Shown here piece after piece: positions 4,201-62,748 of a stretch of 64,000 bases of DNA; the stretch's first letter is position 1; each line of letters starts with the position of its first letter. The notes under the pieces are model-generated. The model did no database searches. It was not told the origin of the DNA and worked only from the letters and a program-made list of their open reading frames with translations. The stretch covers positions 17,608,001 through 17,672,000 of the forward strand of contig OZ281498.1 in the NCBI GenBank assembly GCA_965637545.1. Direction: 5' to 3'. The translations under genes were made by a program, and so were the position numbers. This DNA is from Phallusia mammillata. Lineage: Eukaryota.

Positions 4201-4563
4201 TGAATCGAATTAGTTCCTGCACAAGCACCGTGTTCATGCTTTCGCTGTAGTCGGTCGGGTATTTGACTTGCACTTCCTCCAAATTAAACGGATCTGGAAG
4301 CTTCGACAGAATATCTGATGCCAGTTCTTGGACAATTACCTTAAATCGAGAAATAAACGATCTTGGTAAACTTAGAACGTTGTCAATGTAATACCTAGAC
4401 TAAGCAGGCAAAATTTTGATGCTAAAAAAGGTCATCCCACCTGCGGTGATTTTCCACCAGCTGATGTCGAAAGGCGGGGAAGCGTGACGAGAATTCCATC
4501 GAACATCTGTTGAGTTTCTTGCTGGTCTTTTGAAATGTCGGCGTTCAGATGAAATCCAAAAAC
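1229..4563 (-). CDS. DNAH3: Dynein heavy chain C-terminal domain exons (last seven exons, stop at 1229-1231)
   Basis: [90 protein letters not shown]. Confidence 0.93.
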
Positions 4564-10500: not shown

Positions 10501-13500
10501 TACGTGGTATAATAGGGTGACGGATCTCTTTTGTTTGGATATCAGGGGTTAATAATTTACCATGGTGACTCGTGATTTGAGATCATAGACATTGTTCATA
10601 ACCTTTGACTGAAACTCAATTGCAACATAGTTTGTTTGTGGCATCAAGTAACGGAGGTAGAACTTGTTACGCGAAATGTATGTATCCGGCGGTTTAGAGT
10701 TTAGACTTCTTTAGGTTATGCGTATTTTTAAGTCAAAACCAACGTTTTAGATTTGCCTACAAATGGGTTGTGAAGAGTCAACTGTGACAATGCTTTAACG
10801 TCTTTAGGCCAAATTTGATATAAATCCAAATTCACTGTTTAGGGATCCGTGGCAAACAATATACAATGTCTTGTAAACTACAGCACACACACACATTAAA
10901 CCATACAAACTCAAACAAATTTAACACCGATTGATGATGCTAATAATCAAAACAAGGTGGATAAATTGATGGTTTTCTGAACCTCAGTGGTTTTTAGCTG
11001 AACGGAAACGTTTGCGAATAACGGAAAATATGTCAAAAATGTAGAGCCAATAGTCTTGAGTGACCTCTTGACTTGCTTGAGTACTCCTATGTCGTGGCAT
11101 TTAAGCAATTGTTAACACTAGAAATGGCCTTCAGTAACCTTGACCTGGAGTAACCCGCACCACGTTACAAACAAAAATACAAACCGTATTAGGTATAAAA
11201 AGCTGATGTCACGAATCTTGGGCGAACGCATCGATAAAAACCAACATTACGCCATGGAGGTTAAGCATCGTGGCAAATCAACAAGGTTCCACCAGACAAA
11301 AGAAAATGTTACGCAATTAGCTAATTCGTTTTGTTCGCACAGTTATTTGTCGGCATCTGAAATTGGGCATTTTAAGGCCAACAAAGTGTATTTACTTAAG
11401 GTTACAATGAGGTAACAAACTTTTATATTCCATCTCGAGGCTTTTGTTTGAACGGATGTATGGCGGATGTAGCAGTAAATTAAGAGCGCAATGACTCATG
11501 TCTACTATGGCGCCTAACAATGTTGAACTATGGACTAGAAACGCATTGCGACACCGTTTATTAGGGACTAAATAACGGAGGTGTCAGGTACAGAACCGAT
11601 CTCCATTTTTATTTTAAACCCAGCTTGTTGGCAATGCATATATGCAAGATCTAGGCATTCAACTGTGACGACTGTGTATTTTTCATGCAACGTCTTTGAG
11701 TGTATACATTTGGAAAATTCTTTAGTCCACGTAACAGAGTCCAGTTGAAGCGAAGTCCTAATTTTTTCGTCATGCTGATTGCAATCAATTTAAAAACATA
11801 TAAGCACGTTACAAAATAAAATACTCCTGAATGGGACATCGAAACGTCGACATATCATAATAAAGACTGCCAGAAGAGCTAAAAATTTGCTTGAGATACA
11901 AAACAAACCAAATTTTGAACAAAAAGTTATTGTTGTATTCAATGTTGGATTTTAAGCCATCTACTTCCAGGATCGTTTGCAGGAGTACAAAATGCAAAAA
12001 AGTATATCAAAATGGTGTTAGTAGTAAGCCTAACGGTATCATAAACCCACTGGCGCTTTTTTGCGCCGGGCTATGATGTGGTTTGTGGTAACTCTATAAT
12101 AATGACCCTGAGTGTCCTTGATATCCCACTTCACACAACGAAACGCAGTGGGGAGTTCTTGGTGATGTCACAATTTTGGAGCGTTCGCTTTAAAGGAGAA
12201 AAAATATCAAGAAAATTAACCTACCCTATCTATTTCAAAGGCCCCACAAAATATTAAGCAAATAAGTATATTTTACAATTTGTTAGAAGATTTTGCCATA
12301 AAATGACACATCATGCTTTATATACTTATGAAATAGCTATAAGCTGCTTGGTCGTGAAATTCTCACAACCAACTTGGCCTGGGGTAACCTACACCACTCG
12401 ACTATAGCCTTGTGCAACCCATCGCACCATGAACGCCCCATATACTCAAGACTACGAATAAACTCAACCAGTTGGGATGTGAAACGCAACTAATTAAACA
12501 AGGCTTTTGTTGTCCAATTTCATTGTGATAACTGATAGATACAAATATCAGTGAACCGATGTTGCTACAATCGTAGGGATATGCGAGAGCGTATCAGTCA
12601 ACGTGTTTTATGAGTAATTTTCCATTGGGCTCCTTTGTTTGCCGGGGCAGTGAACTGTTCCCAAACCCATCATGTCAAAGCCCCATCAATGTTTCGGTTT
12701 AGGAACTCATTACCCATGCTTGCAACACAAATAAGTGTTATTGAAACTCAAATATGGTTGAATCAGTATTGTGAGCCTAGCTTCTTGCATTATCATGCCG
12801 CAGTTTTTTTCTTTCGTTATGCATTTTCCTATATCAAGTAGTAAACTTTACACAATCTAACTGCAGTTAAGTGCTAATATATTGTAATTGGGGACTGCCA
12901 GCCGGACAGTACCAAACGGTTCGACAAGGTACAGATATTTGTTTTAGTTGCAACATTAATCGCGTGACACAAAATGGCGTATTTCGTACATATATATTAA
13001 GCGCCTGTGGGCAGTACACATTAGACTTAGAGGTAAGACAAAAAATAGATACTACACATGTTAGGGCTTCAAGAAATTAGGTATTTTACGACCAGGATAT
13101 TCAGGTATAGCAGAACACGGGGCTACAAATGGCAACTTGCTTAGGACTTTTAGCATAAAAAATGTTTGCACAGTCGGTTTAACGTACGAAGGCTCAGCGA
13201 TAAAATACATGTTTACCGACAATTGTCAGTTACGTATTAGTTTACAAATCCGGATAGCTCTAAGGTTTTACTAACTTTGAAAATTCCTAAACTGTATACC
13301 AGTACAACTAGTAAAAATTGTTTCGCAAAATACATTCTGGTGTTTTCAGGTTTTGTTAAACTACACTGCGTGTTATATTCTACCGTATCAAGTAGTAATT
13401 ATTTTTTTTCAATTAAATATTCATGAAAACTACATTGCCAAAGTTTCGCCCACACGTTGCTGGTTTGTTTCAAGTTGACGCCAGCGAATACAAAACGTTT

Positions 13501-16500
13501 CGAAACGAAAACTAAAGCAAAGTTTGTTGCACCTTTTAGTCGGTAAGTTCATGTTTATTTGTTTTAATTTCTACTGCTACAGGTTAAGCTATTGTCCACA
13601 TTTTTCAGGCTAGAGTCAAGAACCCAAATAACAGAAATAAGTCGCAATTTAGCATTAACCTTGACTGCAAAACCTCAAATACCTCTTATTCTGTGACTAT
13701 AGCTAAAATATGTATTGGAATATACATACTATAACCTATGCTAAAGATTCTGTAATACATAAAAGTTTCTTAGCATTTTAACCTTCAGTTCACTAAGTAG
13801 GCTACAACCTATTAGGACACAGATACTAAGTTGTTCTGTAAATATAACTGTCAAACATTAATACCTTTCTTTTCCAGGTTTTGAGGTAATCCACCTTGAA
13901 GCCAATACATATATCTCGAGAAAAATTGAAAACCATGGCTGTACCCATTTGGTAAGTGCCTCAAGCTAACACAGTTTTTTTAATAGTGACCTTTTTTGAT
14001 CTTGTAATGAACAACTTTGTCTCCTACTGGCTGTAGAATGAAGGACGACAACACATTTCAATTAACGTACAGATCTACAACTTCGATTCAACATAGTCTT
14101 CGGTTAGGATTTACGAAATAATTAAGTACTTAACCGTGAAAATGTTACTTATTAACTGCTTGTTTTCTTGGAAAGCCAGTGGTGGCCCGCATGGCCTAAC
14201 ACAAACTTCTAGTAAAAATGTCCTTCTGCGGACAAAAAATACAAAAATGCAATTTACACTGATCGCGATTTTCGGATATCTAGAAACAGTTCCAACACAC
14301 AACAGCTTATTGTATTCTAATGGCACGTTTGCTGCTAAACTGCGCACCCTTGTTCTACGTTATACCAGAAACAGGTATTACAAGACCATGGTTTTGTTTA
14401 AAACCATGCCCAAACGTCAGTGATCATAGCATCCCTAAACAAAACCAAGTCGGGTGACACAATATTCAAAAACAGGTTGCGTGACATGTCTGTACTGTAC
14501 TATCAAAATTTTACCACGTTTCAACGCTTTTCGCAGGGATGAATATGAGCGAAATGGGTGTCACGAAAATAGCGACCGTGGCGAACAGTACCAAGAGGAA
14601 CTTAACGAAAACGCTGAAGATTCGACAATTCAGCCTCCTGAGCTTCCGCCTGAGTCTGACGAAGATCCAGAGTCAGACTCGGGAGAATATAGTCGTGACG
14701 TCACGAGCTCGGAAGATGACGACAGTGAAGAAGATCGTGATGACGACATGTTACCAGATGAGGATGGTTTTGACCAGAGCGACAAAACCGCGGAAAACAA
14801 TGGAATATTTCCAAAGCGAAACGTCGCTAGACGTTGAGGTCAGCGACAAACAAATTGTACAGATACAATGTAGTGTAAAATGTTGTCAGTAAAAATGTAT
14901 TTATCGTGTACAGAATTGTGTAGTGTGTACTCGGATGCATAACGTTTTGAAACTGTTAAGTCTTTTCCAAACAATTCACGACTAGTTCAACGAAGAATCT
15001 ATGTCACTTTTTTGTTCATTGGCACGTGACAAAGGTTCAACCGAAAGCAGAAATAATTGACATGTTTTGAGGGTAGATACATGTAAAAAATATGCATGGA
15101 GATTGCATGAGTTTGAGACATCTGTAAATTTCGTCTTTTAAATCTGCCACGGAAGAGAAAAGCCTCTGACCTAAGGTATACTTGTCGCTCCTTGTTTTCT
15201 AATTGTTTTGCTCATTACCTGTTTCATTTAAATTAGCACATCTCTTCTGTTAATCGTATACACACGAAAATGACAATCGTTAAATCAAAAATGGTTTACA
15301 CTGAGATATTGGCATAGTATTTCAAGCTCTTGTTTTACGGTTTGTTGATTATAATCATTATTGGAGATACAGATGGCATGATTTTTGCCTTAATAGGATG
15401 TCATTAGGCTAGTTATTCTTTGAATGAAAGGCTGGTGTAATCTAAAGCGACTTGTGCAATGATTGATTTAATCACGTTTTATAATTCAAGATACCAAGAA
15501 ATAGGCTATGATTCAGAGATGGTTAATTTAATTATCCCTGGATAGCAGTTGCAACTTTTCTCTACATAATCACCCTGCAAAATACACAAACACGCGAAGT
15601 TAAAAAAAAGACATCGAAATTTACTTCTGAGTCAAACCAAGCATGTTTGTACATTTTTTCGGGTGAGGTATGGTTTAAACGTTTCAGATTGTAAATGAAG
15701 TTAGTAGAAATTGTCGCTGTTAACTCTTAGTTTTGTTGTACGTGCTGCAATTTATGCTGTTTGCTCGCAATATCATATCATACAATACAAATGTAAACAC
15801 CACAAGGTTTGTGCATTAACCGTCAAGTGACAACATTAATGCCTAAATACAGTGGTAACATTGCAGTATGGTTACAATCTGTGCCTCCGTTAATCAAATT
15901 AATTGTAGACATTTTATTGGTTTGTTAAAACTACAAAGGTGTAAATAAAAGGTGTACTAAGCATTGTCGTAGATACTTTTAGTTTGAGATTTATTTGTGG
16001 AAACTGGTCGAGACTAAAGTTTCGGCAAAGCTACGAAGTGTCATCGAGGGTTACTTCAATACACTTGCTTCACGTGACTGCATGTGTCGTCATCACACGT
16101 AATCAGCACTCAGAGTTTAATGTTACTGTTGGTAGGCACTCAGCCGCAAGTAAACGTTTAAAAAACGCATGCGCAAGGTTTAAAAAACAAATTTTGCACA
16201 GGCCTTTCTGAACGGCATAGAAATGGAATTGACGTCCAACAACGTAAGAAAGCAAATGAGCGTGTAAAGGACATTGCCAGTGGGAGTCCGAGTGTGTCAT
16301 AATAAGAAAGCAAACAAAACTACGAGTCGTACGATACTTTTTTAAGTCATGAGTATTTTGAGCCTTGCTAAATGACTTTAGACAATATACACAAATGTTA
16401 ATATGTATAGTACTAAATGCCGCATTGGTTTGCTTAACGCTTTAAATCCAAACGGCTGTACTGCTACAAATCAAGAAACGGTTTAAAAGGTCAATGAATT

Positions 16501-19500
16501 CTCAGCGCAGTAATTTGGTTCCTCTTTCCAAACTACACGTCACAAAAACTGATCATTGCTTATTAAACCGGAAGTTACCAGTGCGCAATACACGGACACT
16601 TTCCAAGGCGGAAGTCACTTGATTCATGTTCTAAAATAGTCTTACATATCCAAAAATGGTTTCATTCATAGAACAATATTCAAAAAGCATTTTTGGGCCT
16701 TCGAAAGAAATGGGGATTTAACTGAAGGGTAATTGTTGGTATAGCGGACTTTGATATTGCATCACGAGGTACTTGTTGTGGCGGAAGTGTACCGGAAGTG
16801 GATGCCTTCGTGCCAGCGAAAGTTTAGGAAGAAAATGATAAATGGGGATTGTTTACCATGGTGACTCATGTCTACCATGGCAACGTTCACTGCAGATAAT
16901 CTTTGCTTAGAAAATTATTGGCACATATTATCCAAGGCGCCACGCATGTAATGGACTTGTTATATTAGACGTCATATTAAGACGAAATGATTTGTACGCA
17001 ACTGATTTAATTACTTTTTGATAGGTCTTGTGTGCTATAGCTGTTTAAACTGCGACGTGTTTGATTCGACCCCTGCTAGTGAATTGCGACGATGTTTTTT
17101 TTACGCAACGTCTGTACTTTTTAATACTTTGTGAAATCTATATCCAATCCAATAACAAGGCACATAAATTAACAAGAAGGTACTGGTGCAATCAGCTCGT
17201 TCGAATATCAATGATTAATTTGGACACTTTTTATCACAGCCAAGTAAATTAAGCTGGTCAAATACATCAACACGTCAAATAGTAAACCGATAGTCTTAAG
17301 TAACATTAGGACTTGACCACGATAATGTTCAATTAGTAAACCCGTAAAGTGAAATTTAAACTACGATTGACCCTAAAAACAGTCGAAATATGGTCTCTGA
17401 CAGTGGCATGCATAGTTTTTCTTTGAATAAAATGCTGGTGCAATCTAAAGCGACTTGTGCAAATATTGCTATTGGCACGCGGTAGTTTGCGATACCACGA
17501 AATTTGATTCAGAGAAGGTTAATTATCTTTTGGATCGCGGTTGCAACTATTCTTTACGTATTCACCATGGGAAATATACAAACACTCTAATGTTAGCAGG
17601 AAGACGTTCATTGGTAACGAAGCAAATAGATGGATAAAAAAGCCATTTCGTACACCATTAAGTGGTCGTTATCCAAGGTAAACAACATTCCATGGTCAAC
17701 AAGAAGACTAAAAATCATGTGTCAGTACCAGAAGTAGTACAAACAATCACTGTCACAGGGCAATTACAGTTGAGACAGAAAAATTATCTACTTTCAAATG
17801 GTGTCCTTTTGCTGAATTTTAGCGATCTGCGCTTAATATTTGCAAGATGTCGTAAACAAATCCGCTTGGTTCTGTTTCTTTAGTGTGTGCGCGACCTTCA
17901 GTAACATTAGGACTTTTGACGTTTAAACATTTGTACTTAATAAACCTTAGTGACCCGATTTAGGCTAAAGTGGTTTGCCGAGTACCACAAACAAAAATGT
18001 GTAATCAAGATACTTTGCCCAGTTTTTCCATGAGGTAATCCAGGTACTTTGACCCGTTTACCGTGTGCACATTAAAGGTCGAACATTACCTCTTGTCAGT
18101 AGTTTGAACCAGATGTTTTTAATCAGCCTAAAATATCAATGTTATAGTTATTGGTCAATTCAGTACAAAAACTCAAAAATTTTCTGCAATGTTTTGTGTA
18201 CAAAATTAAAAAAACAGACCATTCATTCAATTTCAACCCTCATCTTGGCCTGAAATAACCTCCATCGAACCTTGAGTAACACATCACGCCACAAACGCAT
18301 GAACGTGGACTGTGACAACCAAGAGCGGCACATACACAACAAGGGTTTACGCACAATTCCATCTGTGTTTGCACATACAGTACCTTTTTCAAAACCCTAG
18401 GATCAATTTTGCTGCAATGCTTCATGAGTCAGCAGCTCAGATAAAGTAATTCACCAGTAATTTTCCATCGGGCTTCTTTGTTTATGAGGCAGTGGTCAGT
18501 TTGCACAACCAATATGTAAAAACGACAGCAGTCATTAGGTTTTGGAACTTATTAACCATATGTCGAACACAAAAGGTGATGACGAAACTTTATTGCGCCA
18601 TGCTAAACCTTCGGACAACCACCATTTTTTAGTTTAACAACCAAAACAAAGACATTTGATTAAACTAGTTTAACAGCGGACCTTGCAATTGCAGTTTCAA
18701 ATTCAAAAATAGTTCAACAGAAATTATTTGTAACAATAATTGTTTTATAATTGTTAAATAAACCTGCACTTTGTGTGCTTTGATTTGAAGCAAATAATTA
18801 ATTGCAAATATGCTGCCACTTTTTCTGAATTGCGGATACCGCAATAAATATGATGCAATCCAAAGAAATGCAATCAGTTAGCTGAAAAAGGGGAAGTTTA
18901 GGGTGAATACCCACGCGCCATTTTCTCTACAAAACGAAGGTATTGGCTGAAGTCGAGATCTATGCTCAGTCAATCAGGGAGAACAGAAGTGATTTATTAC
19001 GTGGTTATTCGGTTGTTACACAAGACACAAGTGAAACATACAGGTGTATTAATTTTTTACCATAACCGGTTGAAGCCTACAACCAGAAACAAAAACGGTT
19101 TTCACTGTAGGCAAAGTGACTGTTTGAGCAGGGCTGAAACAAAACAGAGATAATTTCTTTACATAAGTTGCGGCTTCAGGGGAATAGACTTTATTCGAAA
19201 AGGTTGTTAAAATCCATTAGAACAGCTATTACATTTTTAAGTTTGCTCAAGACCTTAGCAAAAACACTGTTTGCATTTCGCGTTAAAAACAATGCTTTGC
19301 ACATAAAAATAAGCTTTTATTAGTTTACAAAACTTTATAGCTGTATGGTTTCGCTAACAAAAATATTCTTACATCATGTTTCAGTATAACCACCAAATCA
19401 ACTGTTGAACGAAACTACGTCTTGTTGTATTGTTCAGAATTTGTTGCATTAGATTAGACTGTCCGTTAAATTGTACCCCATCAAGTAAAATTTGTCTCAG

Positions 19501-22500
19501 TTCAATATTCATGCAACGGATCGCCCAAAAGTTTCGACCATACGTTGCTGGTTTATTTCAAGTTGACGCCAGCGAATACAAAACTTTTCGAAACTAAACA
19601 AGCAAAGTTTGTTCCACCTGCCAGTTTTTGCTTGTTGGTAAGTTCAAGTATATTGGTTTTAGTTTCTATACTTTACAGAAGTTAATGTCCACATTATAAA
19701 TCTACAAACCAAATCACAGATTTAAGTCGAAAAGTTATAATGTTGATTGGTACCAGTACAATTTTTGACGTTTAATCCTATGTGCTGCATTTAAACAAAC
19801 TATTTAACGACCATTAATTTGACCACATATGACCTTAAGTAATCATTTCAAATTAGGACAAAGACACAACAGGAAAATGAAATAGGCCAATGCGTTTTTT
19901 ATTAACTTGTCAAACATAAATTGCATGAAAAAACAACTCATTCATAGCTTTCAAACTGTTTTTAGCACGTTTCCCAACAGTAGGAACTAATAACTACAAA
20001 TGTAAGACTTACCAGGCCATTGCTTTTCTTTCAGTTTTGAAATAAATCTTCTTGAAGCCAAGACATACTGTATATCTCGTGATCATTGAAAAACATGGCT
20101 GTGCCTATTTGGTAAGTGTCCAGCGCTAAAAAGATTCCTTCTAAAGTAAACTTTTTTCGACCTTATACAACTTTCAACCGAGGAGGCAGTACAATGAGGA
20201 AACACCTTTGACATTACTTGCAAATTTACAAATCCAATCCCAGTTCCTCTGTAATATATGTCCAGTGTCATCGAACAGATTTAAAGTTAAATGGCTTTTC
20301 AGCATGTTACTCTCAACAGTGCCTTAAGGTGGCTTCACTAGCCTATACGAAGGTCGTGCCACCAGCTTCACTGTTGAGACCGTACAGGTCGAAACAATGT
20401 GCACCGCCTGAGGCTCGATTCAACATAGGTTTTGGGTTAGGTTTTCGTGGTTGTAATGTAGGAAACAGAAATACTTTACCTTAAAAAGTTACTTATTAAC
20501 CAGCCTACATGTTTTTTAACACAACTGTTGTAGCCCGCATGGCCAAAAAGAAACTCTTTGTGAACAAAGTATACTGTAATAAAAAAAATACTACTATACA
20601 ATTCAAACCGGGATCTTTTAAAGACCTAGTAACAGTGTCAAGGGCCCCTATTGTTACATTTTGTCCAGAAAAGGATCAATTAATAACCATGAGTTTGATT
20701 CGTTTCATACCTAAACGTCAGTGATTAGACGCATCCTCGAAAGAAGCCTATCTTTATGACACAATATTCATGTTAGGTAACATATAACTGTAGAAAAATT
20801 ACCATCTAAATTATACCACGTATAAACGCTTTTCGTAGGGATGAATATGAGCCGAAAGGACGTCAGGAAAATAGCGATCGTGGCGAACAGCACCAAGAGG
20901 AACAAAACGAAAACGTTGAAGATTCAGCCACAAACCAGCCTCCTGAGCATCCGCCCGAGTCTGACGAAGATCTAGAGTCAGACTCGGGGGAGGATAGTGA
21001 CGTCATAAACTCGGAAGATGACGACAGTGAAGAAGGTAGTGATGACGACATGCTACCAGATGATGATGGTTTCGACCAGGCCGGCAAAACCGCAGAAAAC
21101 AATGGAATATTTCCGAAGCGAAACCTCACCCGACGTTGAGGTCAGCGAATTGTACATATACAATGTAGTGTTGAATGTTGTCAGTGAGAAATAATTTACT
21201 ATGTACAATTTTATTTTGTGTGTAGTTAAATATTTTGAGAATGTTAAGTCTGTTTCTTTAAATTTAAATTTACGACTAGTTTAACAACAACAATGAATCT
21301 ACGTCACTTTTCATTGGCACGAGACAGAGGTTCAACGGAACATTTTTTTAAAAGTTTACGTTGTAGATTTTGGATTAAGCAGTGGCGTTCATACGATATT
21401 AAATCTTTAGAAATAAATGTACATATTTTATCGATGTTTGTTTGTGAATATTAAAACATTGAAAAGAGACTATGTTTTACTGTAGTCAGTCTTAGGGCAT
21501 TCTTTTGGACAGCACAGTTAAAACGTTTGATTGATTCCAAGGCACACGCTTCAGGTTATTGCAACGTATTACACCAATCGTTAAGCACACACAACGTTTG
21601 GTCGTAAAACCGATCGTACAGCCCAGACAAACGCAGGGCAGAAAAAGGATTTGTAGAGTGGGTAAAGTCAAACAGTTTGTTGACTAAAGCTAAGTGAAGC
21701 AAAAAATAGCTTGTGTGGAAACGAGATAGTTGGATTAAGTTGAAATCGCATTACAAAGTGGTAGAGTGTGCCCATCAGAAACAAACGATTCAGTCAAACT
21801 GCCTGCTAACTGATTTCATTAAATATTCGTAAAAATAAGAAATGCATTTACACTGTCACATTGCTTTTAAGAAAACAATTTAAGACACCAACACGTTTCA
21901 CGTAAACTAACCTTACTTATATACAGAGAACACTGTATATAGGCTAAGTGTTTAAAACTACAAACTGAACTTCACAATAAACCAAGTTTACAAATAGACC
22001 TAAACTACCTCCTTTGTAGTAAATGGACATATTTGTCTGGAAAATGAGACTATAACTTAAAAGGACACAATTTCTCAATTCTTAAATATATACCTTGGAA
22101 CTTTATTTAACTTGATTGTGCATTGTAGTTTAAATATGTGTATAAACTTAATATTTTTTCAAACTTATACTAGTTAGATTTAAAGCAAAGTCAAATCTAA
22201 ACGTACCTCTGGGTGGGTGTTCAAGGGTAAATTCTTGATGTATTTGATGTATTCCTCGTAATCCCTTTCGTCAGGGGCGAAATAGACATCGTTTGATGAA
22301 AACTTATATCCAGCAGTTTCGAAGACTTCCGAACACATGAAATTGCTGAGCAAGCTTTTTAATAACCGCCTGTCGTAGTCGTCGGTCACTCTACCACCGT
22401 AGTTACATTCACCTAAAAGAAAATTGTTGCCGTTTGCTGACAGGGTATTCCGCCCAAGCAAAAACACATAAATTCTGAAAGTTACTTCGCGGGCCGCACA

Positions 22501-25500
22501 AAACCCCTTAGGGGGCCGCATGCGGCTTGTGGGCCGCGTGTTTGATACACCCCTGGTTTACAGTTTTGTTGCTGTTTTTGTATACAACTGTATATTATTA
22601 GAGTCCTCTTACCAATAAGGTAGTTTAGTGCAACCAGAGGTACTTCGTCATAATCTTTTAGAAACATTTGAGTTTGCCTGACGCTGATACGCAGGTCGGA
22701 CTCGTTAAATCCATACGATATATTCCAACCAAGAGGTCCGAAATTTCGTCGTTCTTGAACGAGAGCGTGAAAGAAACACAATGAGAAGAGAATTTTCTTC
22801 CATGTCTAAGTAACACGACAACAACATTAAAAACGTTAACAGTAGCTACTGCAGGTATTCAGGCTGTGAATAACTCTAACTTTTATACATTAACGCAATT
22901 TACAGTTAGAGAGGCAGCCCTTTTACGAAAAGGTGTATTTACTCATTGCTTCAAAATCTATATTACCTAAATTGTAATTATAGCCTGTCTGTCAAGGTTT
23001 TTTTAACCAAAAATGGCGTGACCGACACCCACAATATCTATTGTTCTTTAGCGCCCACTCTCGGATAACTTATTTGGAGTAATATTTGTTTAATTCATTT
23101 TTTGCTCGAGTTTTTCACCTAGTGTACAAATTATTTGGCGGATGTATTTTGCATCACAATTATACTCTTTTATAAGTTTTTCTTACTATGGACACCCACG
23201 GACAAATAACCAGGTTTAGAATTTGAAAGTATAGAAGCTTGAAATTTGAAATGTACGCAAGGACCCATTGAAACCTCAGGTTAAAAACCACTAGCCGAAA
23301 TTTAAAAAAGCTCTTCAAAAAAACAAAAATAATAAAACTCTCATACCGAATCTTTATCCTCTGAAATGCCGTGAAAAAATGTAAGATCTGATATAGGGTC
23401 GTTTTTGTATGAGCGAAGTAGATTAGCTCTCAATCCCTTGGGTGGTTCGTTTGTCATCTTGACACTGTTTTGCAATACGGGAACGGGAAATTCGGGTGAT
23501 GGATAACTTGTCAACCACAAACGAAACTCGTCACGTGTCGTAGTTTTATCAGTGATAACCTGTAGAAAATGTAACTGGTTTTGTATTTTTAGGTGGCAAA
23601 ATATCTATTAAAGATTTGCGCTATAGTTTAGATTATATCAGAGGCTCTGAACATACTGTCGTTTGAGCCTTGGTCGCTTTTAAACATCAGCATTTTGCAA
23701 ACAACAAAGTCCCAATTGTTGCAAAATCAACTACTGGATGAGTTTATTGTTTTCAAACTGTCGCCTTTTTATACTTGTAAAATGACTCAGTGCAATCATG
23801 CATAACAAATTAAGTTTAGATATTCGGCCTTCGACAACTTTGCAATAAACAAAAGTACATTAACAAATTTATTTAAAACAGCATTAACAATTGGACCTTC
23901 ACTTATTTCTCAAACAAAAAAATGTATTTGCATCCCAAACCACAAACAAAAATGGATAATTCCACAAGGCGTGCAATTAGATTTATTATCCGACTTTGTT
24001 TACCTCTTCACAAATTCTTCGTAATTCGGGCAACCACGAAACAGCCAAATGGCAATTCTGTAGAACAATCCAAGTCCCGTTATGTCTTGCATGCTCGATC
24101 ATTCGCTCCGCTATAGGGCCTTGACCTTGACCGAGAGAGATAGTTTGCATGCCAGATGACATACCTAAAAACATTGGATGTTAAAATTCAGTGCAGTGGA
24201 ATTTCCTTTGGATTAAAATTGAGCTAGAATTTATCGTATTGTTTGTAAAATAAGCACGTTAAACAGCATGATTTTGGCAATTCCGAGGAGTATCCTACCA
24301 TGCGTATTGCGTACACAGATTCAAAGCAGCAGAACAAAAATTCAAACAATTTTGTTCATATCCAATGCAAAGAAAAAAACATGTTAAAACTATTCGTTGT
24401 TCTCTGAAACATTCTGGATCAAGCAGCTATATGGTTCACTTTTATCATAAAAATACACAATTGGGACAATAAACTGGTGGATTATTACAATCGCTACTAA
24501 CAGGCATTTAAAAAGTACTATTTACTAATACATGCAAGACTACGTTGTGTTTTGAGATATGGTACGATTTTTCCCTCGGGTGTATGACATAATCAGGTTC
24601 ATGCAAATCGTTTTTGATTGTAGTTTTGTCTACGCCCAACGACATACTGTATACAATTCCCTCCTGATTGGAGCTCTGCGGTGCCAAATTATTCTCGGTT
24701 TCCTTGGGTGTTGTAATTTTGACGTTGAACGGAAATTCAGTAAGCTTCTCGGTTTCAGCACTTCGACCGGGGGCTAATGTTACTTCGGGTACACCACTTA
24801 ACATCGGCGGAGAAAGAAGCGACTTTTTCCCGTGTACGGACTCGCCAAAGCCTGACATTGATTCAGTCATGCCCAAAAGCCGCCCACTAATTTCATTTGC
24901 CGTTATAGTTGGGGCTTCAGTCGGCATTGGGGGCCGTGGGGGCGACCTAGGGCGCAATGACGCCCTTCTGGAGAGTGGGTTCCTGGGTGTTTTTGGGGTA
25001 GTTGCTTGTGTGGTGGTCGGTTCTATGATACCTAGGGTGATGGACATGCACGATGTAACGTTTACGTGACATGCAGAAATTAAGATGACGGTGCAGTTTT
25101 GTGACGGTTACAAAAAATGAAAAATAACGGATATAACACAAGAACTGCATACAATTGGTACATAAGTGTAAAGCAAAAACAAATGAAAATCTAAATTATG
25201 ACAACGTGCAAGAAAATATGAACAGTTTTTAAAGAAAACTATGGATAAAAAACTATTTTGGAAAACATGTTTTCATAAACGCTCCCTGAAAATTTATAAA
25301 TATTCAAGTTAGAACTTTTGGCAAAACCACGCAAGTATTAGCTTTTTACTGCTGTTTTTAAAGTGAAAATTTGTTGAAACATTTATATTAACCTTTTTCC
25401 TCTGCAAACTTTACCAAGCTCGCCATCGGATCAGCACCAGGTGATAAAATAAATATAAGCGGAGTTGAAGAATCAGAATCTTGATAACTTGAATGCAGGT

Positions 25501-28500
25501 CAAATGTGGGAGGTTCGATGTAGGATGGACCCAGCTTGTTTACTATGAAGCTCTGCAAAAAGTAGTATTGAATGGATTTTGCCACAAGTGGTTCTTGCCC
25601 TACAGTATTCTTAGTATTCCTTGCTATATTCTAAAAACGTTGCAAATAGAAGTTGTCACACAATTTGAAAAAGTGAAGTATTAGTATGGACATTGAGTGT
25701 GAATTTGGATACCTATTCGACGAAGTTTTATGACGTCACAGCTTGTCGCGCACATTTTCGGTTTTTACGCGACATATTTGCACAAAATCTGGTTGGACTG
25801 ATAAAGCCGCATTATATCACTGATGAAGGCACGAGTATTCGTGTAATGTTCAAGAATAAAGCATTCGGCTTGCTACGTCTAGAAGGGCTAGTGTTAACTT
25901 TTTTCTAAATTTGAACGCATATGAGAATAATTTTTCAATGTATTTGGTAACGCAAATACAAGTATATCATACAAGCACTTTTTGTAATAAGTATACTATT
26001 TTGGACAGGGTCCAATTTTTTTGGGTTATTTCGTACCTGCACTGCTGGCACCACTTTATCAGGTCTCACGCATCGAATCAAAATCAGCTTTTCGAGTTGA
26101 CCGAGTTTCTCATTCCAAGGAGCCGGAAATTCCGATGTGTGAGGGGAGGGAGAGTCGTACAGAAATTTCCAGCAACTTGGCTATAAAACGTGAAACATTT
26201 TGCGTAAATATCTTCACATGTGGTTTAATTCACACGTCCAGCAATTTAGTAGTTCTAGACGTTTTCGGTAGTTCTAGACTTTGGCAAAGTAGAAAATCTT
26301 ACAAGTGAAAATTAGGTTAACTAGTGTTATTTTTGATGTATGTAAGAAGGGTGTTAGCAACTTCTACACACGAAACCTCTAAATAGGAAAGTTTTAACGT
26401 TGCGCCTTTGGTGTAGAAAACTCTTTTTCCATTTGTTTGAAACGTTTAAAAAATCTGGGGTACCTGGGTAAATCTGGATAAATTTGATCTATTTGTAGAC
26501 AATTTGTAGACTGGCCGGCCAATATTGCATCAAAAAGCGGAATGCTGTTGTAATATTATAACCATCATACCAACTTAAACAAGCAGAAATCATAACTTTG
26601 ATCAAGTTATTTTAATTTTAATAAAAAACCGTAGCAAAAACACACACATTTGTTTTTAAAACTTACGTTGGATCGAAAATGTCTCATCATACCGGAAAAT
26701 GCGGGCAAATCGCTGCAGCGAACGATTTCGGCCCATGACTTGTCAGACAACCACTTGGGGGCGGGATTAGGAAAGGCATTGTCCAATGCGATGCCACCAG
26801 TAAGTAGAAACCTCCAATGGGCGTCAACGATCTCATTTCTAAAAAGTACGTTTCGTTTGAATATAACCGCTTCGAATTTTTCCCTCAAGCGTTTGACATT
26901 TAAATTTCAGCATAAAATTGCAACCACACCATGCTTATACGGATGTCAGTCAATCAATCTAATGGGCTCTACTATCCTTTTATGTTGATACTTCCTGCAA
27001 TCGGACTGTTTTCACGCAAAACATTTTTCAAAAAAACTCAAATTCCAGTTTTTAGCACCTTTTAGGTTAGTATACAAGTGAAATGCAATACAGTAGGCTA
27101 TACTGCAACATTGTATCGTTTTTTAACAGTTTTAGATGTATTCAAATATCCGATATGAGCATAAAAGCATAACTTAATTGTCTCGAAATTGAAGAGCATA
27201 CACTTAAAATCACAAGCCGCAACAACAATAATCAACATATTACCAACCTTCCTTTCAATATTCCAATGCAGAGGAGAAACGAAAATAGCAACTTGTCCTT
27301 TTCGAACAGTGAACGGCAAACGTTTCTGAATATAACTTGAGTAAAGTGGTCTACCAAGTTACTAATGCGTTCTTCCAGCACTGGCGACGTTTGGCTTTGC
27401 TCAGTCGACTGAAAAACAATACCTGATTCAACGCACGGCTTGAACGCAGTCACGTATAACCGTTTCGGTTAAGTGAGATTGCAAACGTTGGCATAATACT
27501 GCAGCCGAGTAAGAGCCTGCTATGAATGCATTTTTTCGCCGTGAACGTTACGCGTTTTAACATGCTAACATAGGAAGGGCATACAATACCAATTAACCAG
27601 GTTACAAAGTGGTTTTAAACATTAGGTTACACACTCTTTATGCGAAATTGAAAACAGTTAACGGTTACGCGAATTGTGATTAACGCAACATTTATTTGTT
27701 ACTACCACGTTTCACAGCAATGCCCCAGCTAGCAAATTAGGGTTACATACAGTCAAAGTAACAAATCAAACATATACAATGCATACAATATTAAAGCTTT
27801 GGTTGTAACTTAAATCATGGCCGTTCAACGCTTGTCATTTTAACAGTTCAGTACAGAGAACAAACTAAAAAGGATCCAATACTGTTTTTATCAAATGAAA
27901 TATTCACAATATACTATACTATCCCTTGTTTTAACACAATATACTACACTATCAAAATAAATTGACGTCAATAAATTTGCAATAAGAAGACCTAACTCTT
28001 TATTTCCCTGTAATAAATTTTAACCCTTAGTAAGCCTTTATTGACCACTGACCTGCACGTATAGGTTAATAAACCACCATAGAGAGTACTGGTACATCGG
28101 GTCAATGTGGGCCAAGTCGGAGATCACAAAGAAGAGAATGGATGAGTGGACAGCAACTGGTCTGTAACCATTCCTTGTTGTGTCGATTTCTTGCTCAGTA
28201 CGACTTGTTATCTCCTGTTTTTCAGATATTTCGGCAGAAAGTTTTCGACTGGATGAAAGGATGCTTATTGCTGTTTCATCTTCGAGGATGTTTCCTGTGA
28301 GTAATATGTGAGACAATTTTACAAACTGGCAATAAGACACGAATCAGGTATTGTTTATGGCAAAATCGATGACAACATTTTTTGCATTATGCATTAAAGA
28401 TATACACCGACTGTTTCAAGTGTGCTGACAGATTTAGCTGTGATGCAGCAATATATGTAACTGAACTCGTCGTTGAGCACGATTTTTGTCTTAGAACATC

Positions 28501-31500
28501 TTTTGCAACAATACACTGTTTCTCAACCCCGAGTTGGTAAAGAGTTTATGAAAGTGTTTACATTTTTGGTGGTATTTTACATCGACATTTTAAGTTTATT
28601 TTGCAAGACATTTTCCTCACATCAAAACTAAACGCTGACAGGGTGAAAGTATTGTTATAAGTGTCAGAAAGAGTCGAAAAATACAGATAATAGCGCACAA
28701 ACAAAATCTAAACACAGACACACATTTTAATAAACAACACCCTTTCAAACCATAGTACGCCAGGCCTATAAAAAGGCGTTCAAGCGAATCGAATTGTTTT
28801 TTTATTACTTCCGTGCGGCAAGCCATGTATCGCATTCCCCCACAGGATAGATTTTTCATAGTGCTAACAGGCCTGGCGTATTGTAAATTATATATCGGTG
28901 TATGGTTGTCGTTGGTAAACGTTTCCGGGTTGAAGCCAGTATACCGCAACATTTAACATACATAGTCTATTTATAGTTTTTAAGCCTAAAGATTAACCTT
29001 CACGAGACAGCACTTCCAAAATCTTATCTTCAATATCCTTCAGTTGCCTCTTGTTTCTTGCTCCTTCCAAGATCAACTTATTCTTCTTCTGTTCCAACTC
29101 CGGACGCTCTTTGGCGGCGACAAGAGTTAGAAGTTGATCTTCCAAACCAATCGGCGTAATCATAAAGTTGATCAGGGTAACCTACATTCAGTAAGTGCAA
29201 TAGACAAACAATTCAAACACTGAGGTATCGAACATTTCAGGTGACTAATAAGTAACCTACACTCAGCAAGTGCAATAGACAAAGATTTCAAATAGTGAGA
29301 TATTGAACATTTCAGGTGACTAATAAGTAACCTACACTCAGCAAGTGCAATAGACAAGGATTTCAAACACTGAGGTATCGAACATTTCAGGTGACTAATA
29401 AGTAACCTACACTCAGCAAGTGCAATAGACAAAAATTTCAAATACTGAGATATTGAACATTTCAGGTGACTAACAAGTAACCTACACTCAGCAAGTGCAA
29501 TAGACAAAGATTTCAAATACTGAGATATTGAACATTTCAGGTGACTAATAAGTAACCTACACTCAGCAAGTGCAATAGACAAAGATTTCAAACACTGAGG
29601 TATCGAACATTTCAGGTGACTAACATACCAACTAAAGGTTCTAAAGTAAAAAAATCGTTTATACAATTCAAATTGACAGGTAAAGGTGAAGTTCAATGGA
29701 TGTTTATGAACCTAATATCACCAATTCTTTGGAATAAGCTGAATATTTGCAACAATAAAAATAAGTTTGGAGTTTAATTCTACAAACAGTTGGCAGCAGA
29801 ATACAGCTTGTGTAGTGGTAAATACGAACAAGTCTAAGTCTCCCTTATGAAAACAGTTGCAGATAAAGTAGATGCAAGTCATTTCAATATAGATAAAACG
29901 ATTCTAACCCATCAAATACAAACAGTAATTCCAAACACAATTTTTGTCATAACATTAAAACGCACCTTGACTGAAACTTCAGGCAAATAATGAGGATTTC
30001 TCATTCTTGTGCTGATGTACAAGACAAAATCGTGGCTGTATTGTATGGTGCTCTCCCCAAGCTTAATGTATTCCATTCCACTTTGCTTAAACGTTTGTCG
30101 AAGCAAAAGTGGATCAAGAACTGTGTCCAAGTGTTCCGGAACATTCTCAATCAGCAGAGGATTGCCAAACTAAAAACGCAACATTAAATGTATATACAGA
30201 GGCCATATATCAGAGGAGAATTGTAAACCGTAAAAAAGTGAAGGGCGTTGGGTCAGATCACACTCAGATTTTAACATCGTTTACAGTTGGAATATGGCGG
30301 ACAAAGGACCTGAGGTTCAAGCAAAGCTTTACTTAAAATAACACTAATAAAACATTTGCAATAAAAGACGCAATTTTGTTATATGGACTGTAATAAGTTT
30401 CAGATTGTGCAACGTGATCAAGTTTAATTGAAAAATTTACACAAAATTACGTAAAGAAAACACTTCTTCGGTAGCCTTCATGGAACGAATAATAGAATTC
30501 TACTAGCGAAGTTAATAACTATCTAATAAACTGTTTCGAAAAAATATTTAGCTGTAAGTTTGTATGTAACACGCTTTTTATACTTGGTAATTTAATAACC
30601 TGTATGCAGTTTTCAAGTGTTCGAAAATAATCCGCATCAGTGAGTTTACAAACGTGGAGGTTGTTTTTCTTCTCCATGTTCTTCACCCAAGCGCATGCCT
30701 GTCCCTGTGGGTCGATCATGAGAGGCCAGCGACTTGCATTGTTCACTATTATAGCGTTGTCGACCGACGTGCTTAAAAAAAGTTACACAAATAATTTAAT
30801 CAATATTCATGATTTTGCATTCAAGTTTCTATTTTAAAACGGCGTTGAATCAGGAATAGCTTAAACATAGGCTACACTAGCCAAATCTCTCATCACCAGC
30901 TACACTGACGACATCTTATAAGTCGAAACAATGTGCACTGTTTGCAGCCTAAACATATATTTATAAATTTTCGGCTCAAAGTGGAATGTCATATAACGTG
31001 GTTTGACAATCGACCCAAATAAAGTAATTACTGCTCAGTATGGAACATTACAATAAAAACGGAAAGAGCAGAATACTTATGTACACATTTATTACAGTTT
31101 GGTTATCACATGACGTCACTACGTTTTTTTGTTAAATGAGTTTCAAACTTCTGGATAGTTTTAGCTGAAACAACATAACTGTTGAGTCATTTGCAATAAA
31201 ATGGTTTTCTGTACGGAGCTGTCTATTTGGAACGTTCTGCTTTAAATTATGGCTGCATTTAAAGTACACTCAAATTGCTGTGAAAGTTATTTTACACGCA
31301 CAGTTTAAAACTCACTTGTCTTTCGGCAGCCCGTCCAGCTTCCAGTCCATGATTTGCACAGGATCTCCAAGTGTACGTGCAAGCGAGAAGTCGTCACTAA
31401 CGGGAATTTCTCGGCTTTTGCATTCCTCCCACCACTTTTTAAGCGATTCCTGAGTTAAAAATTTTAAGTACAACACATTGTTACACTTATAGCCGAAATA

Positions 31501-34500
31501 ACATACACATCGTATTATCAAACAAACGAAAGATCACACTGTCAGTGGTTCTGCGTTTTTTTTTTCACGGGGTTCGAACCGACGACGCTACCGGGGACGA
31601 ATCCCGATCAAGGTTTTTATATCTGCATTTTTTGACTGAACTAAATTAAACAACCACTCATTACTCACCTGGCGATATAAGGGAGTGAATGGAGCCAGGT
31701 AGGCCACCACGCTTGATGACAGTAAAACATCGCCCACGATATTGTGGTAGGTGTTATGTAGTGATTGCGTTGTCTCAGTCCACCTGTCTTTCTCGCCACC
31801 CAATCCACTGATCAGTTTCTCCGCACGGATTAACTTCACTTTGGTGAGTTCGATGTCATCTTCAAGTTTCTACAATAAATGAAATGTCAGTAGCGTGAAC
31901 GTGCATTTTTCACTGATTGAAACATTTGAAAGTAAAATTACCCATATGTATTAGTGCGCTTTGGAAATAAACTTAAAACAAAATACAAAAAATCAAAACG
32001 TGCTCAAAAGTAAAGTTAAAACGACATATAATTTCTGACATGCCAAAACGAGACAAAGAGTTTATGATCCGGTGGCCGTCAATATTCTTAAGGCCAGGTT
32101 TACTCAAAGTCTTTAAGGAGAGAAACATGCTACAGCAGAGTAACTAGCAAAGAATGTATTTCACCTTTTTCTCAGTAAGTTTTTCCTTGAGATTATCATT
32201 AAGAACTTGGAGCTTCTGCGTCACTTCCTCCAGTTCGTCACGCTTCACTTGCAGCACTTCCATCTCGTGTGCCAGATCAGCTTCGGCAGCCAACAAGCTC
32301 TTGCGCTTTGGCGCCACCACCTTTGCCACTCTGTGACGTAATTTCAGTAATTGTCAAAATTGGTAGTCAGGTAATTGTGCACGCAAGATAAGCGTTTTAT
32401 TTTACAACGTTTAGGTTTTTAACTAACTTTGTTCGCGAAGACTTCTTACCAGTAGCATATGCAAGAAAGATTAAGCCGTCTTAGTGAATGTTAGTGTTTG
32501 TTTTGTGTTGGATTTAAAATGAAATAAAGCACATTATTAACAAAAGGATTATAAATTTGATGAAATTGGGACGCGTTTTGAACTTTTATAATAACCTTGT
32601 CCAACTATATTTTATATAATATTCGTAACGAAACAAGGTTTTAATTAAAAATGCGCAGTTAAAGAATGTGCTAAATTTCCATGTGTGTTTTTTGTTACCA
32701 ACCTGTCGTATACTTCAATAGCCAGCACCCAACTACACAAGCCCTCGCAAGCTGACGACACATTTCGTATAAGATCAGGTCGGAAGTTTTGTTCACCGAT
32801 AAATCGATCTCGGATCTTCCGCATCACACTCACTGGAATATTGTCCTTGTCGAATTCCTGCAGAAAAATAAGCGACGTAAAGAAGGAATAGTCGAGTTGT
32901 AGTCTATCATAGTATCAGTGTGTATGGAATAAAACAAAAATTGACCTGCAACAAACCAAACAAGCCGTTTTAAAGGAATTAGTTTGCTGCACGGCCATGT
33001 CCATTTGTTCCCAAAATGCTAGTTACGATTTTTTAAACATCAACGACGTATTACAGAATCACCAAGACGCCAACATTGTAATACACAAGACTTTTTGCAG
33101 CTTTCCGGTATCAAGTTATTTATTTAAGATACAAATGGTGAAGCGCATGTTTCGTTTATAATGTAAATATTTGTCAACTCCCGTTGTAATTTAGGTTAAC
33201 GTTACTGGGTACTGTCTCCCACATAAAAAGGTTTGGCAAAGTATTTATGCTGGGCTACAACCACCATATAACCTAAACAGATATGATATCAAACAGTTTT
33301 TTTCACTTACTCGCAAAGAGTCGAGAAATTTCATATCACCCAACATCTTTTTGGCAGCAGGCCAAAAATCGTCAAAAGCCCGCCCACTGCCGTCTGTTTT
33401 GCGGTCAGGCTTAATTCCCTAAAATATGCAAAACAAATGTAGTAAATATTTGCATAAAGATGATCACGCTCGACATGGTTAATAAGCAGTAATGCAGAGA
33501 GCAATATCCCCAAAATCGATCCTCCACTGTGGTTGCATAATCTTGCACTAATTTGAACTTTCACTTCAAAACATGACTCTTTTTACGATTTTATACAATT
33601 GTTGCTGTTTGATCGTACCTTTAATATACAGATTGCTTCCATGGTCATTTTCACACCAGCAGGGGGATTCTGCATAGTTTTTACCAGCGCTATGTCTTGT
33701 TGTCTCAGTGTGTCAAGGGCAGCAATTGCGGCGTTCATGGCTGGCATGGCAACAGCAAGCTTCTCTTCGCATTCCTGTTTGATTTTTTCCGCCTCTTGCG
33801 CAGCTAAATGAAGCAAAAACACACAGAGTCAGTTGTATAGATAAAAATCTTACAACCTAACGAACGCTTTTCGGCTATCAAGCCAGGGTCGCAAAAATGT
33901 CATGAGTTTAATACCCATAACATCGTCTAAATGTGTAATACTCGATTTGCCAGTTTTAGTTTCAGTTCCACACCTATTTTTTAAACTAGGATGAGTTGAT
34001 AACTTTATCTGACTAATTTGGTTCTATGTATAAGCAAATTTCTCCAAATTTTATTTTTGCCACAAAATGCAGTACAAAAACACGATCATACCTGCAGCAG
34101 CAACAGCCTCGTCTGCCTCAACCAGCTTTTTAGCAATCTCAACCTCAGCACTCTCGGCGCTAATGTCAGCAACCAGTTTTTCCACTTCCTGAAATGCAAA
34201 GCCTAGTGATGCTTGGTGCTTAATGTGGATAAGTGTACCACTGTATAATATAGCATCAACGCACAACGACATTCATTTCAAACAAGCCACACATGATTTT
34301 TTGGTGTTCGAACACCTACCAGGGATTTCTCTTCGAGTTGTGGTTGTTGTGCAGTGAGATATTCTTGCATGTTGTGAATTTCTTGTTCAGCAAATTCAAG
34401 TTTCTCCAAACCAACCACGTAACGATTTTTGAAGGTCAAAAGATCAAGCCTCTTTTGTTGCAGAAGACGCTTGAAGGTTTTTATGAGCTCCAGATAGGAT

Positions 34501-62527: not shown

Positions 62528-62748
62528 CATCCGGTAAGCAAGGACACTGACGTTTTAGACGTCTGCAACAAATCGTGCTGACCAAAAGAAAAACAACAGC
62601 ACAAAAATCAGTTTCTAGACACCTTCTTGACAGAAAAAAAACGTGCAATGATTAAATGTAGTCGTTCGATTATAAGCGTTCGCTACACGACAACCATACA
62701 GTAAGTTATAAAATTAGTACGTGAACAACAGACCCTTGACTGTACAAA

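What the first reader, a model, noticed from the sequence alone, without database searches (positions are those of the whole stretch)
24648..25031. Hidden 128-aa low-complexity cassette exon inside the dynein AAA6 domain
Seen: a 384-nt stop-free, GC-richer segment with acceptor ctag|GT and donor A|gtatgt, in exactly the phase needed between ...FAEEKG and [15 protein letters not shown]. It encodes [35 protein letters not shown]...QEGIVY, with a PKA consensus (RRAS) and several SP/TP sites. Known: dyneins normally have only a short loop here, and cAMP/PKA regulates axonemal beating. Inference: an isoform-specific phosphoregulatory loop in the motor ring.
Basis: partly seen in the sequence, partly recalled or inferred. 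Interest (0 to 1): 0.7.

Follow-up and report, generated by a model that had tools for sequence, protein, structure and literature searches.

The report
Conserved skipped exon in ciliary dynein
An intron of a cilium motor gene (an inner-arm dynein) holds a 384-base in-frame stretch that all four RNA assemblies examined skip, yet its kinase-site motif recurs in other genomes, apparently alongside the same gene, so it is likely an optional exon that would add a predicted floppy, phosphorylation-controlled loop to the motor ring.

Summary
Window 25031-24648 (minus strand) is a 384-nt, stop-free, AG/GT-flanked segment in phase 1/1 inside a 1,228-nt intron of an intact DHC7-class inner-arm dynein, within AAA6. 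All 4 RNA assemblies laid (one study, tissue unknown) skip it, so inclusion was never seen. It is conserved, however. Sixteen unnamed ORFs in five other sequence groups match it, four groups with the 24-residue motif at 15-22 of 24 identity, against about 12-23% elsewhere. In 13 of 16 the read-through fits the same splice donor. The motif joins a PKA-type site (RRxSL) to a CDKL5-type site (RPRSP). The segment is predicted disordered and sits in a helix-strand loop that is short in 25 of 25 solved dyneins. Verdict: likely a conserved, usually skipped cassette exon adding a phospho-regulatory loop. Inclusion, tissue and function are unshown. It was not found in print in nine searches.

The parts
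25393..25552 (-). Constitutive dynein exon upstream of the segment (start of the AAA6 large domain; by the recalled AAA+ layout, first strand, P-loop-like turn and helix); ends in phase 1
   Evidence: RNA contigs X1-X4; canonical GT-AG cuts; PF03028 positions 2-26
25032..25392 (-). Intron part upstream of the segment, 361 nt, GC 0.30; ends in a T-poor acceptor; holds one in-frame ATG at 25047-25045, six codons before the first whole codon of the segment
24648..25031 (-). Candidate cassette exon, 384 nt, phase 1/1, 128 codons, rich in P/T/S/E, predicted disordered
   Evidence: homologs; skipped in 4 of 4 RNA assemblies
24928..24999 (-). Conserved 24-residue motif (residues 11-34 of P0002): TP sites, RRASL (24969-24955, PKA-type) directly followed by RPRSP (24954-24940, CDKL5-type)
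   Evidence: 22, 21, 18 and 15 of 24 identical in four other sequence groups; CDKL5 consensus from PMC12711092; PKA consensus recalled
24165..24647 (-). Intron part downstream of the segment, 483 nt, GC 0.34; donor GTATGT; the ORF reads on 45 codons to 24511; no AATAAA/ATTAAA
24004..24164 (-). Constitutive dynein exon downstream (AAA6 strand 2 onward); starts in phase 1
   Evidence: RNA contigs; PF03028 positions 32-83; best PDB matches DNAH3, DNAH7, DNAH12
1822..64000 (-). Host gene: DHC7-class (IAD-3) single-headed inner-arm dynein heavy chain. It continues beyond the window; the AAA1 Walker A/B exon lies at G000:C5:17718541-17718783. The lower coordinate is approximate (last C-terminal ORF seen).
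   Evidence: spliced transcripts over 22611-28296

Best explanation
The segment is likely a conserved cassette exon of an inner-arm dynein heavy chain: it is skipped in the four RNA assemblies examined and, where included, would insert a predicted disordered loop of about 110-128 residues into AAA6, whose conserved PKA-type and CDKL5-type sites would likely act as a phosphorylation switch on that motor. Shown: the open frame and splice phases; the skip isoform; an intact host motor (AAA1 Walker A and B); conservation of the motif; a short loop at this site in solved dyneins. Inferred: that the homologs lie in the same intron of the orthologous gene (contig-length matches and donor read-through; their DNA was not seen), and that inclusion occurs in a restricted cell type such as sperm or one class of cilia. 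Proposed mechanism, untested: the basic, proline-rich motif (six Arg/Lys in 24 residues) docks, when unphosphorylated, on an acidic surface of the ring or a neighbouring axonemal part and restrains the AAA6 movements of the power-stroke cycle. Phosphorylation of the two serines, five residues apart, would neutralise it and release it, so cAMP and ciliary-kinase signals would tune one dynein only in cells that splice the exon in. Given a real exon, I put the phospho-switch role at about 0.6.
For: Frame, phases and nulls. The intron is about twice its neighbours' size and splits into two normal-sized introns. A blind search of 5.8 billion proteins returned 2 hits among 20 candidates at E <= 10, both with the motif (best E 1.5e-3). 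A profile search of 1.84 billion representatives returned 5 hits at E <= 0.001, 3 of them new. Motif identity is 22, 21, 18 and 15 of 24, against 8/68 to 18/79 over residues 35-127. RRxSL is present in 5 of 5 groups that have the N-terminal part, counting the window, and so is RPRSP. Homolog similarity stops where the window's donor lies, and the next three residues fit A|GT-ANG-T in 13 of 16 ORFs and in 5 of 5 groups. The insertion site is a helix-to-strand loop in a model of a homolog, -2 to +2 residues long relative to the skip form in 25 of 25 PDB chains. The segment has no secondary structure in AlphaFold2 (mean pLDDT 58, pTM 0.16). Precedent: a phosphorylated disordered AAA5 loop in outer-arm alpha and IAD-5 chains (10.1101/2025.03.10.642390).
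Against: No inclusion was observed: 4 of 4 RNA assemblies join 25393 to 24164 and give no cover from 24209 to 25213 (one study, contig depth about 5-11, and contigs drop rare forms). No protein of 288-2000 residues carrying the segment scored E <= 10 among 7,994 candidates (weak, and full-length dyneins of about 4,000 residues were out of range). Co-location is at contig level only, 10 of 16 homologs had no length match, and three homologs on matched contigs (P0016-P0018) have lost the donor pattern and look like decaying duplicates. The donor pattern was chosen after looking at the sequences, and the five groups are related. The acceptor is weak and the codon-usage test inconclusive. The homolog ORFs of four groups start at the codon where the window's exon starts, which also fits a first exon. 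A second PKA-like site (RRSSS/RRSSL) present in all five other groups is missing in the window. No phosphorylation data exist for this segment, and the heavy-chain survey placed PKA sites only in N-terminal regions or AAA5.
Confidence: 0.65

Rival explanations
1. Alternative first exon: an internal promoter in the intron starts a short transcript at this exon, which splices to 24164 and encodes the disordered leader plus the rest of AAA6 and the C-terminal domain.
For: The homolog ORFs of four groups begin at the same position with a called start. The window has an in-frame ATG at 25047. Only the donor side could be inferred in homologs. The acceptor tract is T-poor.
Against: The window has Ile where homologs have the called start, so a hydrophobic residue rather than a start is kept. 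Skip-type orthologs also have Gly-Met or Gly-Phe at the junction, so Met there is expected in an internal exon. Gene callers report any start as Met (recalled). An AG in the exact phase is present. The product would lack the first strand and helix of AAA6 (inference and the recalled AAA+ layout).
Confidence: 0.12
2. The exon is used, perhaps constitutively, in related species but is a silent or nearly silent relic in this one.
For: 0 of 4 RNA assemblies include it. The window copy is the most divergent outside the motif and lacks the second PKA-like site. Its acceptor is weak.
Against: The frame is fully open over 128 codons while the other two minus frames hold 6 and 8 stops. The motif is 22 of 24 identical to another group although the rest of the segment is about 23% identical, which needs recent selection.
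Confidence: 0.13
3. Alternative last exon: the acceptor is used but the donor is not, and translation stops after 24511, truncating the dynein inside AAA6.
For: The ORF runs 45 codons past the donor.
Against: No AATAAA/ATTAAA in the downstream intron part. The tail GC drops to 0.36. Homolog tails after the donor position differ in length and sequence.
Confidence: 0.04
4. Chance ORF, repeat remnant or exon of an unrelated nested gene.
For: Low-complexity segments match by chance more easily (general knowledge); the best single-sequence E-value is only 1.5e-3. The host gene does carry nested opposite-strand genes and a mobile element in other introns. A 133-codon ORF overlaps on the + strand.
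Against: Single copy in the genome. Nulls of 0-27 per 3000.
Confidence: 0.06

Closest known systems
Phosphorylated AAA5 loop of outer-arm alpha and IAD-5 dynein heavy chains (bioRxiv 10.1101/2025.03.10.642390; read: parts 1, 2 and 4 of 6 plus passages; supplements not seen)
   Same: An extended, disordered, serine-rich loop projecting from the AAA ring of one heavy-chain class and proposed to tune that motor; PKA sites are reported in AAA5.
   Different: That loop comes from AAA5 and arches over the buttress, and its phosphorylation is measured. Here the loop would be in AAA6 of an IAD-3 chain, is optional by splicing, and is unmeasured. The words AAA6, insert and splic- occur 0 times in that text.
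DNAHX, the non-motile dynein with motor-domain insertions (PMC11785096; read: abstract and passages)
   Same: Lineage-restricted insertions in the motor domain of an axonemal dynein of aquatic animals that change the motor's cycle.
   Different: DNAHX derives from the outer-arm alpha chain, has degenerate AAA1 motifs, and has insertions in the stalk, MTBD and AAA4S. The host here is DHC7-class with canonical AAA1 motifs, and the insert is skippable.
DHC7 / IAD-3 single-headed dyneins DNAH3, DNAH7, DNAH12 and sea urchin DNAH4 (Kollmar 2016, PMC5100056; read: passages including Table 1)
   Same: The host's exons match these best. The genome has three other DHC7-like genes, so the host fills a fourth slot, as the paper describes for animals.
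   Different: No solved DHC7 chain has a long loop here, and no long Ser/Pro-rich ORF was seen within 1.5 kb upstream of this exon in the paralog loci. The paper says only that some genes have alternative splice forms in the motor domain and cites a mutually exclusive exon in DHC1. The name DNAH4 is an inference; no tree was built.
CDKL5/LF5 substrate motif R-P-x-[S/T]-P (PMC12711092; read: passages, and 11 of 15 supplement files searched) and PKA motif R-R-x-S-hydrophobic (recalled)
   Same: RPRSP and RRASL match exactly and lie back to back.
   Different: These are motif matches only; related kinases such as ICK/MAK and DYRK share the RPxSP preference (recalled), so the kinase is not identified.

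Membership tests
Cassette (skipped internal) exon | AG acceptor and GT donor in phase with both neighbours, length a multiple of 3, no stop | tested here: met
Cassette (skipped internal) exon | Skip isoform exists | tested here: met
   4 of 4 RNA assemblies join 25393 to 24164
Cassette (skipped internal) exon | Inclusion isoform exists (both junctions in RNA) | tested here: inconclusive
Cassette (skipped internal) exon | Coding conservation in relatives at the same gene position | tested here: inconclusive
   Sequence and donor read-through conserved; same contig as the orthologous exon by length match for 6 of 16; exact intron position not seen (context scans empty)
DHC7 / IAD-3 inner-arm dynein heavy chain (host) | Best matches among solved dyneins are DNAH3, DNAH7 and DNAH12 | tested here: met
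   (two exons tested)
DHC7 / IAD-3 inner-arm dynein heavy chain (host) | Canonical AAA1 Walker A and Walker B | tested here: met
   L026 ORF at 3789-3421; located by PF12774; linked to the window exons by strand, order and complementary profile positions, not by RNA
DNAH3 ortholog (host) | Closest DNAH3 match within its genome | tested here: not met
   Paralog L013 scores 63.2 bits on human DNAH3 over a 45-residue stretch; the window's same stretch does not reach E 1e-10 on it and scores 44-49 bits on its best chains
DNAH4 (fourth animal DHC7 paralog; host) | Groups with sea urchin DNAH4 in a tree | not tested
   No reference sequence on hand; inferred from four DHC7-like loci and Table 1 of PMC5100056
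DNAHX-like non-motile dynein (host) | Outer-arm alpha origin and degenerate AAA1 | tested here: not met
Phospho-regulatory heavy-chain loop (AAA5-loop type) | Disordered surface loop of the AAA ring | tested here: met
   Predicted only:
Phospho-regulatory heavy-chain loop (AAA5-loop type) | Derived from AAA5, over the buttress | tested here: not met
   The site is in AAA6
Phospho-regulatory heavy-chain loop (AAA5-loop type) | Phosphorylated in vivo | not testable with these tools
   Consensus matches only
Transposon or repeat remnant | Multiple copies in the genome or a transposon domain | tested here: not met
   One DNA match; one other protein match, at E 7.75; no Pfam family; no tandem repeat here

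The most novel reading that the evidence does not exclude
An animal lineage has built a splice-controlled, kinase-gated brake into the ring of an inner-arm dynein. One cell type (for example sperm) includes a 110-128-residue AAA6 loop whose paired PKA and CDKL5-type sites switch the motor, so one gene yields a plain motor for ordinary cilia and a signal-responsive motor for another axoneme. It would be a case of alternative splicing handing cAMP and ciliary-kinase control directly to the motor ring of an axonemal heavy chain.
Probability: 0.3. Interest if true: 0.75.

Novelty: new variant of a known kind. Interest (0 to 1): 0.55.

Why it matters
How the same axonemal dyneins give different beats in sperm and in epithelial cilia, and how phosphorylation of heavy chains acts on the motor, are open questions; the 2025 survey calls heavy-chain phosphorylation little studied. 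A natural with/without pair, made by splicing, in an otherwise invariant AAA6 loop and carrying two conserved kinase sites, makes this directly testable by RT-PCR by tissue, exon deletion, serine mutants and gliding assays. Proteomic searches against skip-form gene models would miss these peptides, so such sites could be hidden in existing axoneme phosphoproteomes (inference).

Tried and rejected
No listed holder was on record as RNA in the run search; four guessed-RNA runs proved spliced when laid. The 'longer' homolog search (288-2000 aa) found nothing among 7,994 candidates; proteins of 224-287 aa and above 2,000 aa were not covered by the word-index searches, so annotated full-length dyneins with the insert were not tested. 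Context scans for the homologs were empty: metagenome contigs with P0008 (138 pattern matches, 0 confirmed) and with the motif (599 matches, 0 confirmed), and prokaryote genomes (600 matches, 0 confirmed). Pfam gave nothing for the segment, PDB gave one irrelevant hit at E 3.4, and the ESM Atlas gave only scores of 0.80 or below. The synonymous-codon test was uninformative. An SH3-ligand reading (RxxPxxP, recalled consensus) was set aside as the conserved core because two of five groups lose the last proline. DNAHX membership was rejected. P0114, a 419-residue member of P0023's cluster, reads as an unrelated bacterial sensor kinase and was dropped before the contig count. Earlier-findings look-ups were all empty. 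Literature searches found no description of this exon; the exact motif was in 0 papers. The library lacks most subscription journals. No complex prediction was run.

Full report
Observation. On the minus strand, 25031-24648 is 384 nt, preceded by ...ccctag and followed by gtatgt. Whole codons start at 25029 and give 127 residues without a stop; the coordinates read from base 1 are out of frame. The flanking exons end and start in phase 1 at 25393 and 24164, so inclusion adds 128 codons in frame. GC is 0.51 against 0.30 and 0.34 on either side. The intron is 1,228 nt while 6 neighbours are 409-644 nt, and the segment splits it into 361 and 483 nt. The stop-to-stop ORF is 199 codons, against 38-61 in the 6 neighbouring introns. 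In intron-like random sequence an ORF of 128 codons or more arose 27 times in 3000 and one of 199 or more 0 times; shuffling the segment left its frame open 13 times in 3000. Two tests went against or were neutral: the acceptor tract is T-poor (0.24 against 0.29-0.53 for 7 confirmed acceptors), and synonymous codon use (-0.116 bit/codon) fell between exons and introns. The DNA has one match in the 240-Mb own genome, and the protein has one other match, at E 7.75.

Host gene. The flanking exons match Pfam PF03028, the dynein D6 P-loop domain, at profile positions 2-26 and 32-83, so the site is inside AAA6. Best PDB matches are DNAH3, DNAH7 and DNAH12. The genome gave 16 dynein matches to the downstream exon. 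By their translations, L005, L006 and L013 look like DNAH12, DNAH7 and DNAH3 (labels partly recalled). L013 scores 63 bits on human DNAH3 where the window's same stretch scores 44-49 bits on its best chains. The host is therefore a fourth DHC7 paralog, the slot that Table 1 of Kollmar 2016 (PMC5100056, passages) gives to sea urchin DNAH4; no tree was built. Its AAA1 exon lies about 59 kb upstream of the next one and has canonical Walker A and B motifs. The intron that holds the segment sits at a different position from those in L005, L006 and L013, and no long Ser/Pro-rich ORF was seen within 1.5 kb upstream of the matching exon in the paralog loci whose frames were printed.

RNA. The run search listed 15 runs, none on record as RNA. 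The four best guessed-RNA runs, from one study, were laid. All four are spliced, all four join 25393 to 24164, and none covers 24209-25213. These are assembled contigs at depth about 5-11, which drop rare forms, and the tissue is unknown. The skip form is shown; inclusion is neither shown nor excluded.

Conservation. The segment found 2 proteins among 20 candidates in 5.8 billion, and a profile found 5 in 1.84 billion representatives at E <= 0.001. With cluster members there are 16 unnamed ORFs in five groups, from ENA and JGI assemblies; their taxa are unknown. Residues 11-34 are 22, 21, 18 and 15 of 24 identical in the four groups that have this part, while residues 35-127 are 8/68 to 18/79 identical. 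One group (P0008) starts later and lacks the motif, and one copy (P0011) has lost it. Similarity ends where the window's donor lies. The next three residues fit a read-through of A|GT-ANG-T in 13 of 16 ORFs and in all five groups; P0016-P0018 do not fit. The nominal chance is 0.066 per group, but the pattern was chosen after inspection and the groups are related. Residues before that point number 109-118 in the four full-length groups and 127 in the window.

Co-location. Scans for DNA context were empty, so an indirect test was used. A search with the downstream exon returned 85 proteins among 90 candidates, 5 of them at 89-93% identity. Ten clusters were expanded, and the 15 records of the five closest clusters were compared, after dropping one unrelated member, P0114. 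Ten had no match. Equal length most likely means the same contig (inference); it bounds the distance to 38 kb in one case and does not give the intron. Three of the six are the copies that have lost the donor pattern, which suggests that the segment was duplicated together with the dynein exon and is decaying in the extra copy.

Structure. AlphaFold2 on the segment with 7 homologs gave no helix of 4 or more residues and no strand (pLDDT 58, pTM 0.16). A model of a contiguous homolog (P0030, 53 sequences, pLDDT 68) puts the insertion point in the loop between helix 4-16 and strand 24-28. In 25 of 25 PDB chains matched by both flanking exons, this loop is within -2 to +2 residues of the skip form. 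The site corresponds to about residue 3543-3544 of human DNAH3. The inclusion form itself was not folded.

Mechanism. The conserved core is RRxSL directly followed by RPRSP, both kept in 5 of 5 groups with the N-terminal part, counting the window. The first is the PKA consensus (recalled). The second equals the flagellar CDKL5 consensus R-P-x-[S/T]-P (PMC12711092, passages), a preference that related kinases share (recalled). I propose that the basic motif tethers the loop to the ring or to a neighbouring axonemal part and that phosphorylation releases it, tuning this motor only in cells that include the exon. This step is inference. The closest precedent is the phosphorylated AAA5 loop of outer-arm alpha and IAD-5 chains (10.1101/2025.03.10.642390; parts 1, 2 and 4 of 6 and passages read; supplements not seen). 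That text places PKA sites only in N-terminal regions or AAA5 and does not mention AAA6, insertions or splicing. DNAHX (PMC11785096, abstract and passages) shows that motor-domain insertions can lock a dynein, but it is a different, non-motile lineage.

Rivals. A first exon for a short C-terminal product (0.12) fits the aligned starts of the homologs and an in-frame ATG at 25047. Against it, the window has Ile at the aligned position, and skip-type orthologs also have Gly-Met or Gly-Phe there. A relic exon (0.13) fits the RNA but not the intact frame and motif. A last exon (0.04) lacks a poly(A) signal. Chance, repeat or unrelated gene (0.06) does not explain the shared donor position or the co-location.

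Novelty and verdict. Nine literature searches (listings and abstract starts only, apart from the four papers named) found no description of this exon, and the motif occurred in 0 papers; most subscription journals are not in the library. Five look-ups of earlier findings were empty. Optional exons that add disordered phospho-loops are a known kind, but one inside AAA6 of an inner-arm dynein, conserved across several genomes, was not found in print. Verdict: a real, conserved, likely cassette exon (0.65); new variant of a known kind; interest 0.55, held down because no inclusion read and no phosphopeptide has been seen.

Noticed in passing
G000:C5:17659098-17718541 (window 51100-64000 and beyond; L020-L023): An intron of about 59 kb splits AAA1 of the dynein and holds a cluster of opposite-strand, cysteine-rich ORFs that look like thrombospondin type 1 repeats (weak Pfam TSP1 hits for 52997-53299; repeated similar ORFs in L021-L023).
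   Followed up: partly
window about 8690-8955, 14400-14835 and 20810-21136 (+): Three related, very acidic ORFs nested antisense in dynein introns, ending in a shared NGIF/IP-type tail; no Pfam family for the two scanned. Possibly a small family of acidic proteins.
   Followed up: partly
window 46265-49875 (-): A broken retroelement in a dynein intron: ORFs of 227, 431 and 198 codons with a YIDD motif and a GIY-like motif, Penelope-like by recalled motifs, with a partial duplicate near 46265-46560; no Pfam hit at E 0.01 for the two ORFs scanned.
   Followed up: partly
window 24647-24622 and 24164-24141 (-): The first 25 or so bases after the segment's donor resemble the start of the downstream exon (both begin GTATGTC and share a CAAA..CTA stretch). 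This may be chance or the trace of an old tandem duplication.
   Followed up: no
window 29177-29623 and 7128-7684: Tandem repeats in dynein introns: 6 copies of 75 nt (open in one minus frame for 179 codons) and 2 copies of 279 nt at 99% identity.
   Followed up: no
P0014/P0016 and P0108/P0110 (contig length 2,116,431); P0011, P0017, P0018: One related lineage carries duplicated copies of both the segment and the downstream dynein exon; some copies have lost the donor pattern or the motif.
   Followed up: partly
P0114 (cluster of P0023): A 419-residue protein that reads as a bacterial sensor histidine kinase is listed in the 90% cluster of a 56-residue dynein fragment, a likely clustering error in the collection.
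   Followed up: no
window 59521-59859 (+): A cysteine-rich ORF gave a below-cut-off Pfam HopJ match (23.1 bits against a cut-off of 27); likely spurious.
   Followed up: no
window 42301-42432 (-): A short acidic dynein exon candidate (a run of Asp) between AAA2 and AAA3 motifs, no Pfam hit; not checked against RNA.
   Followed up: no
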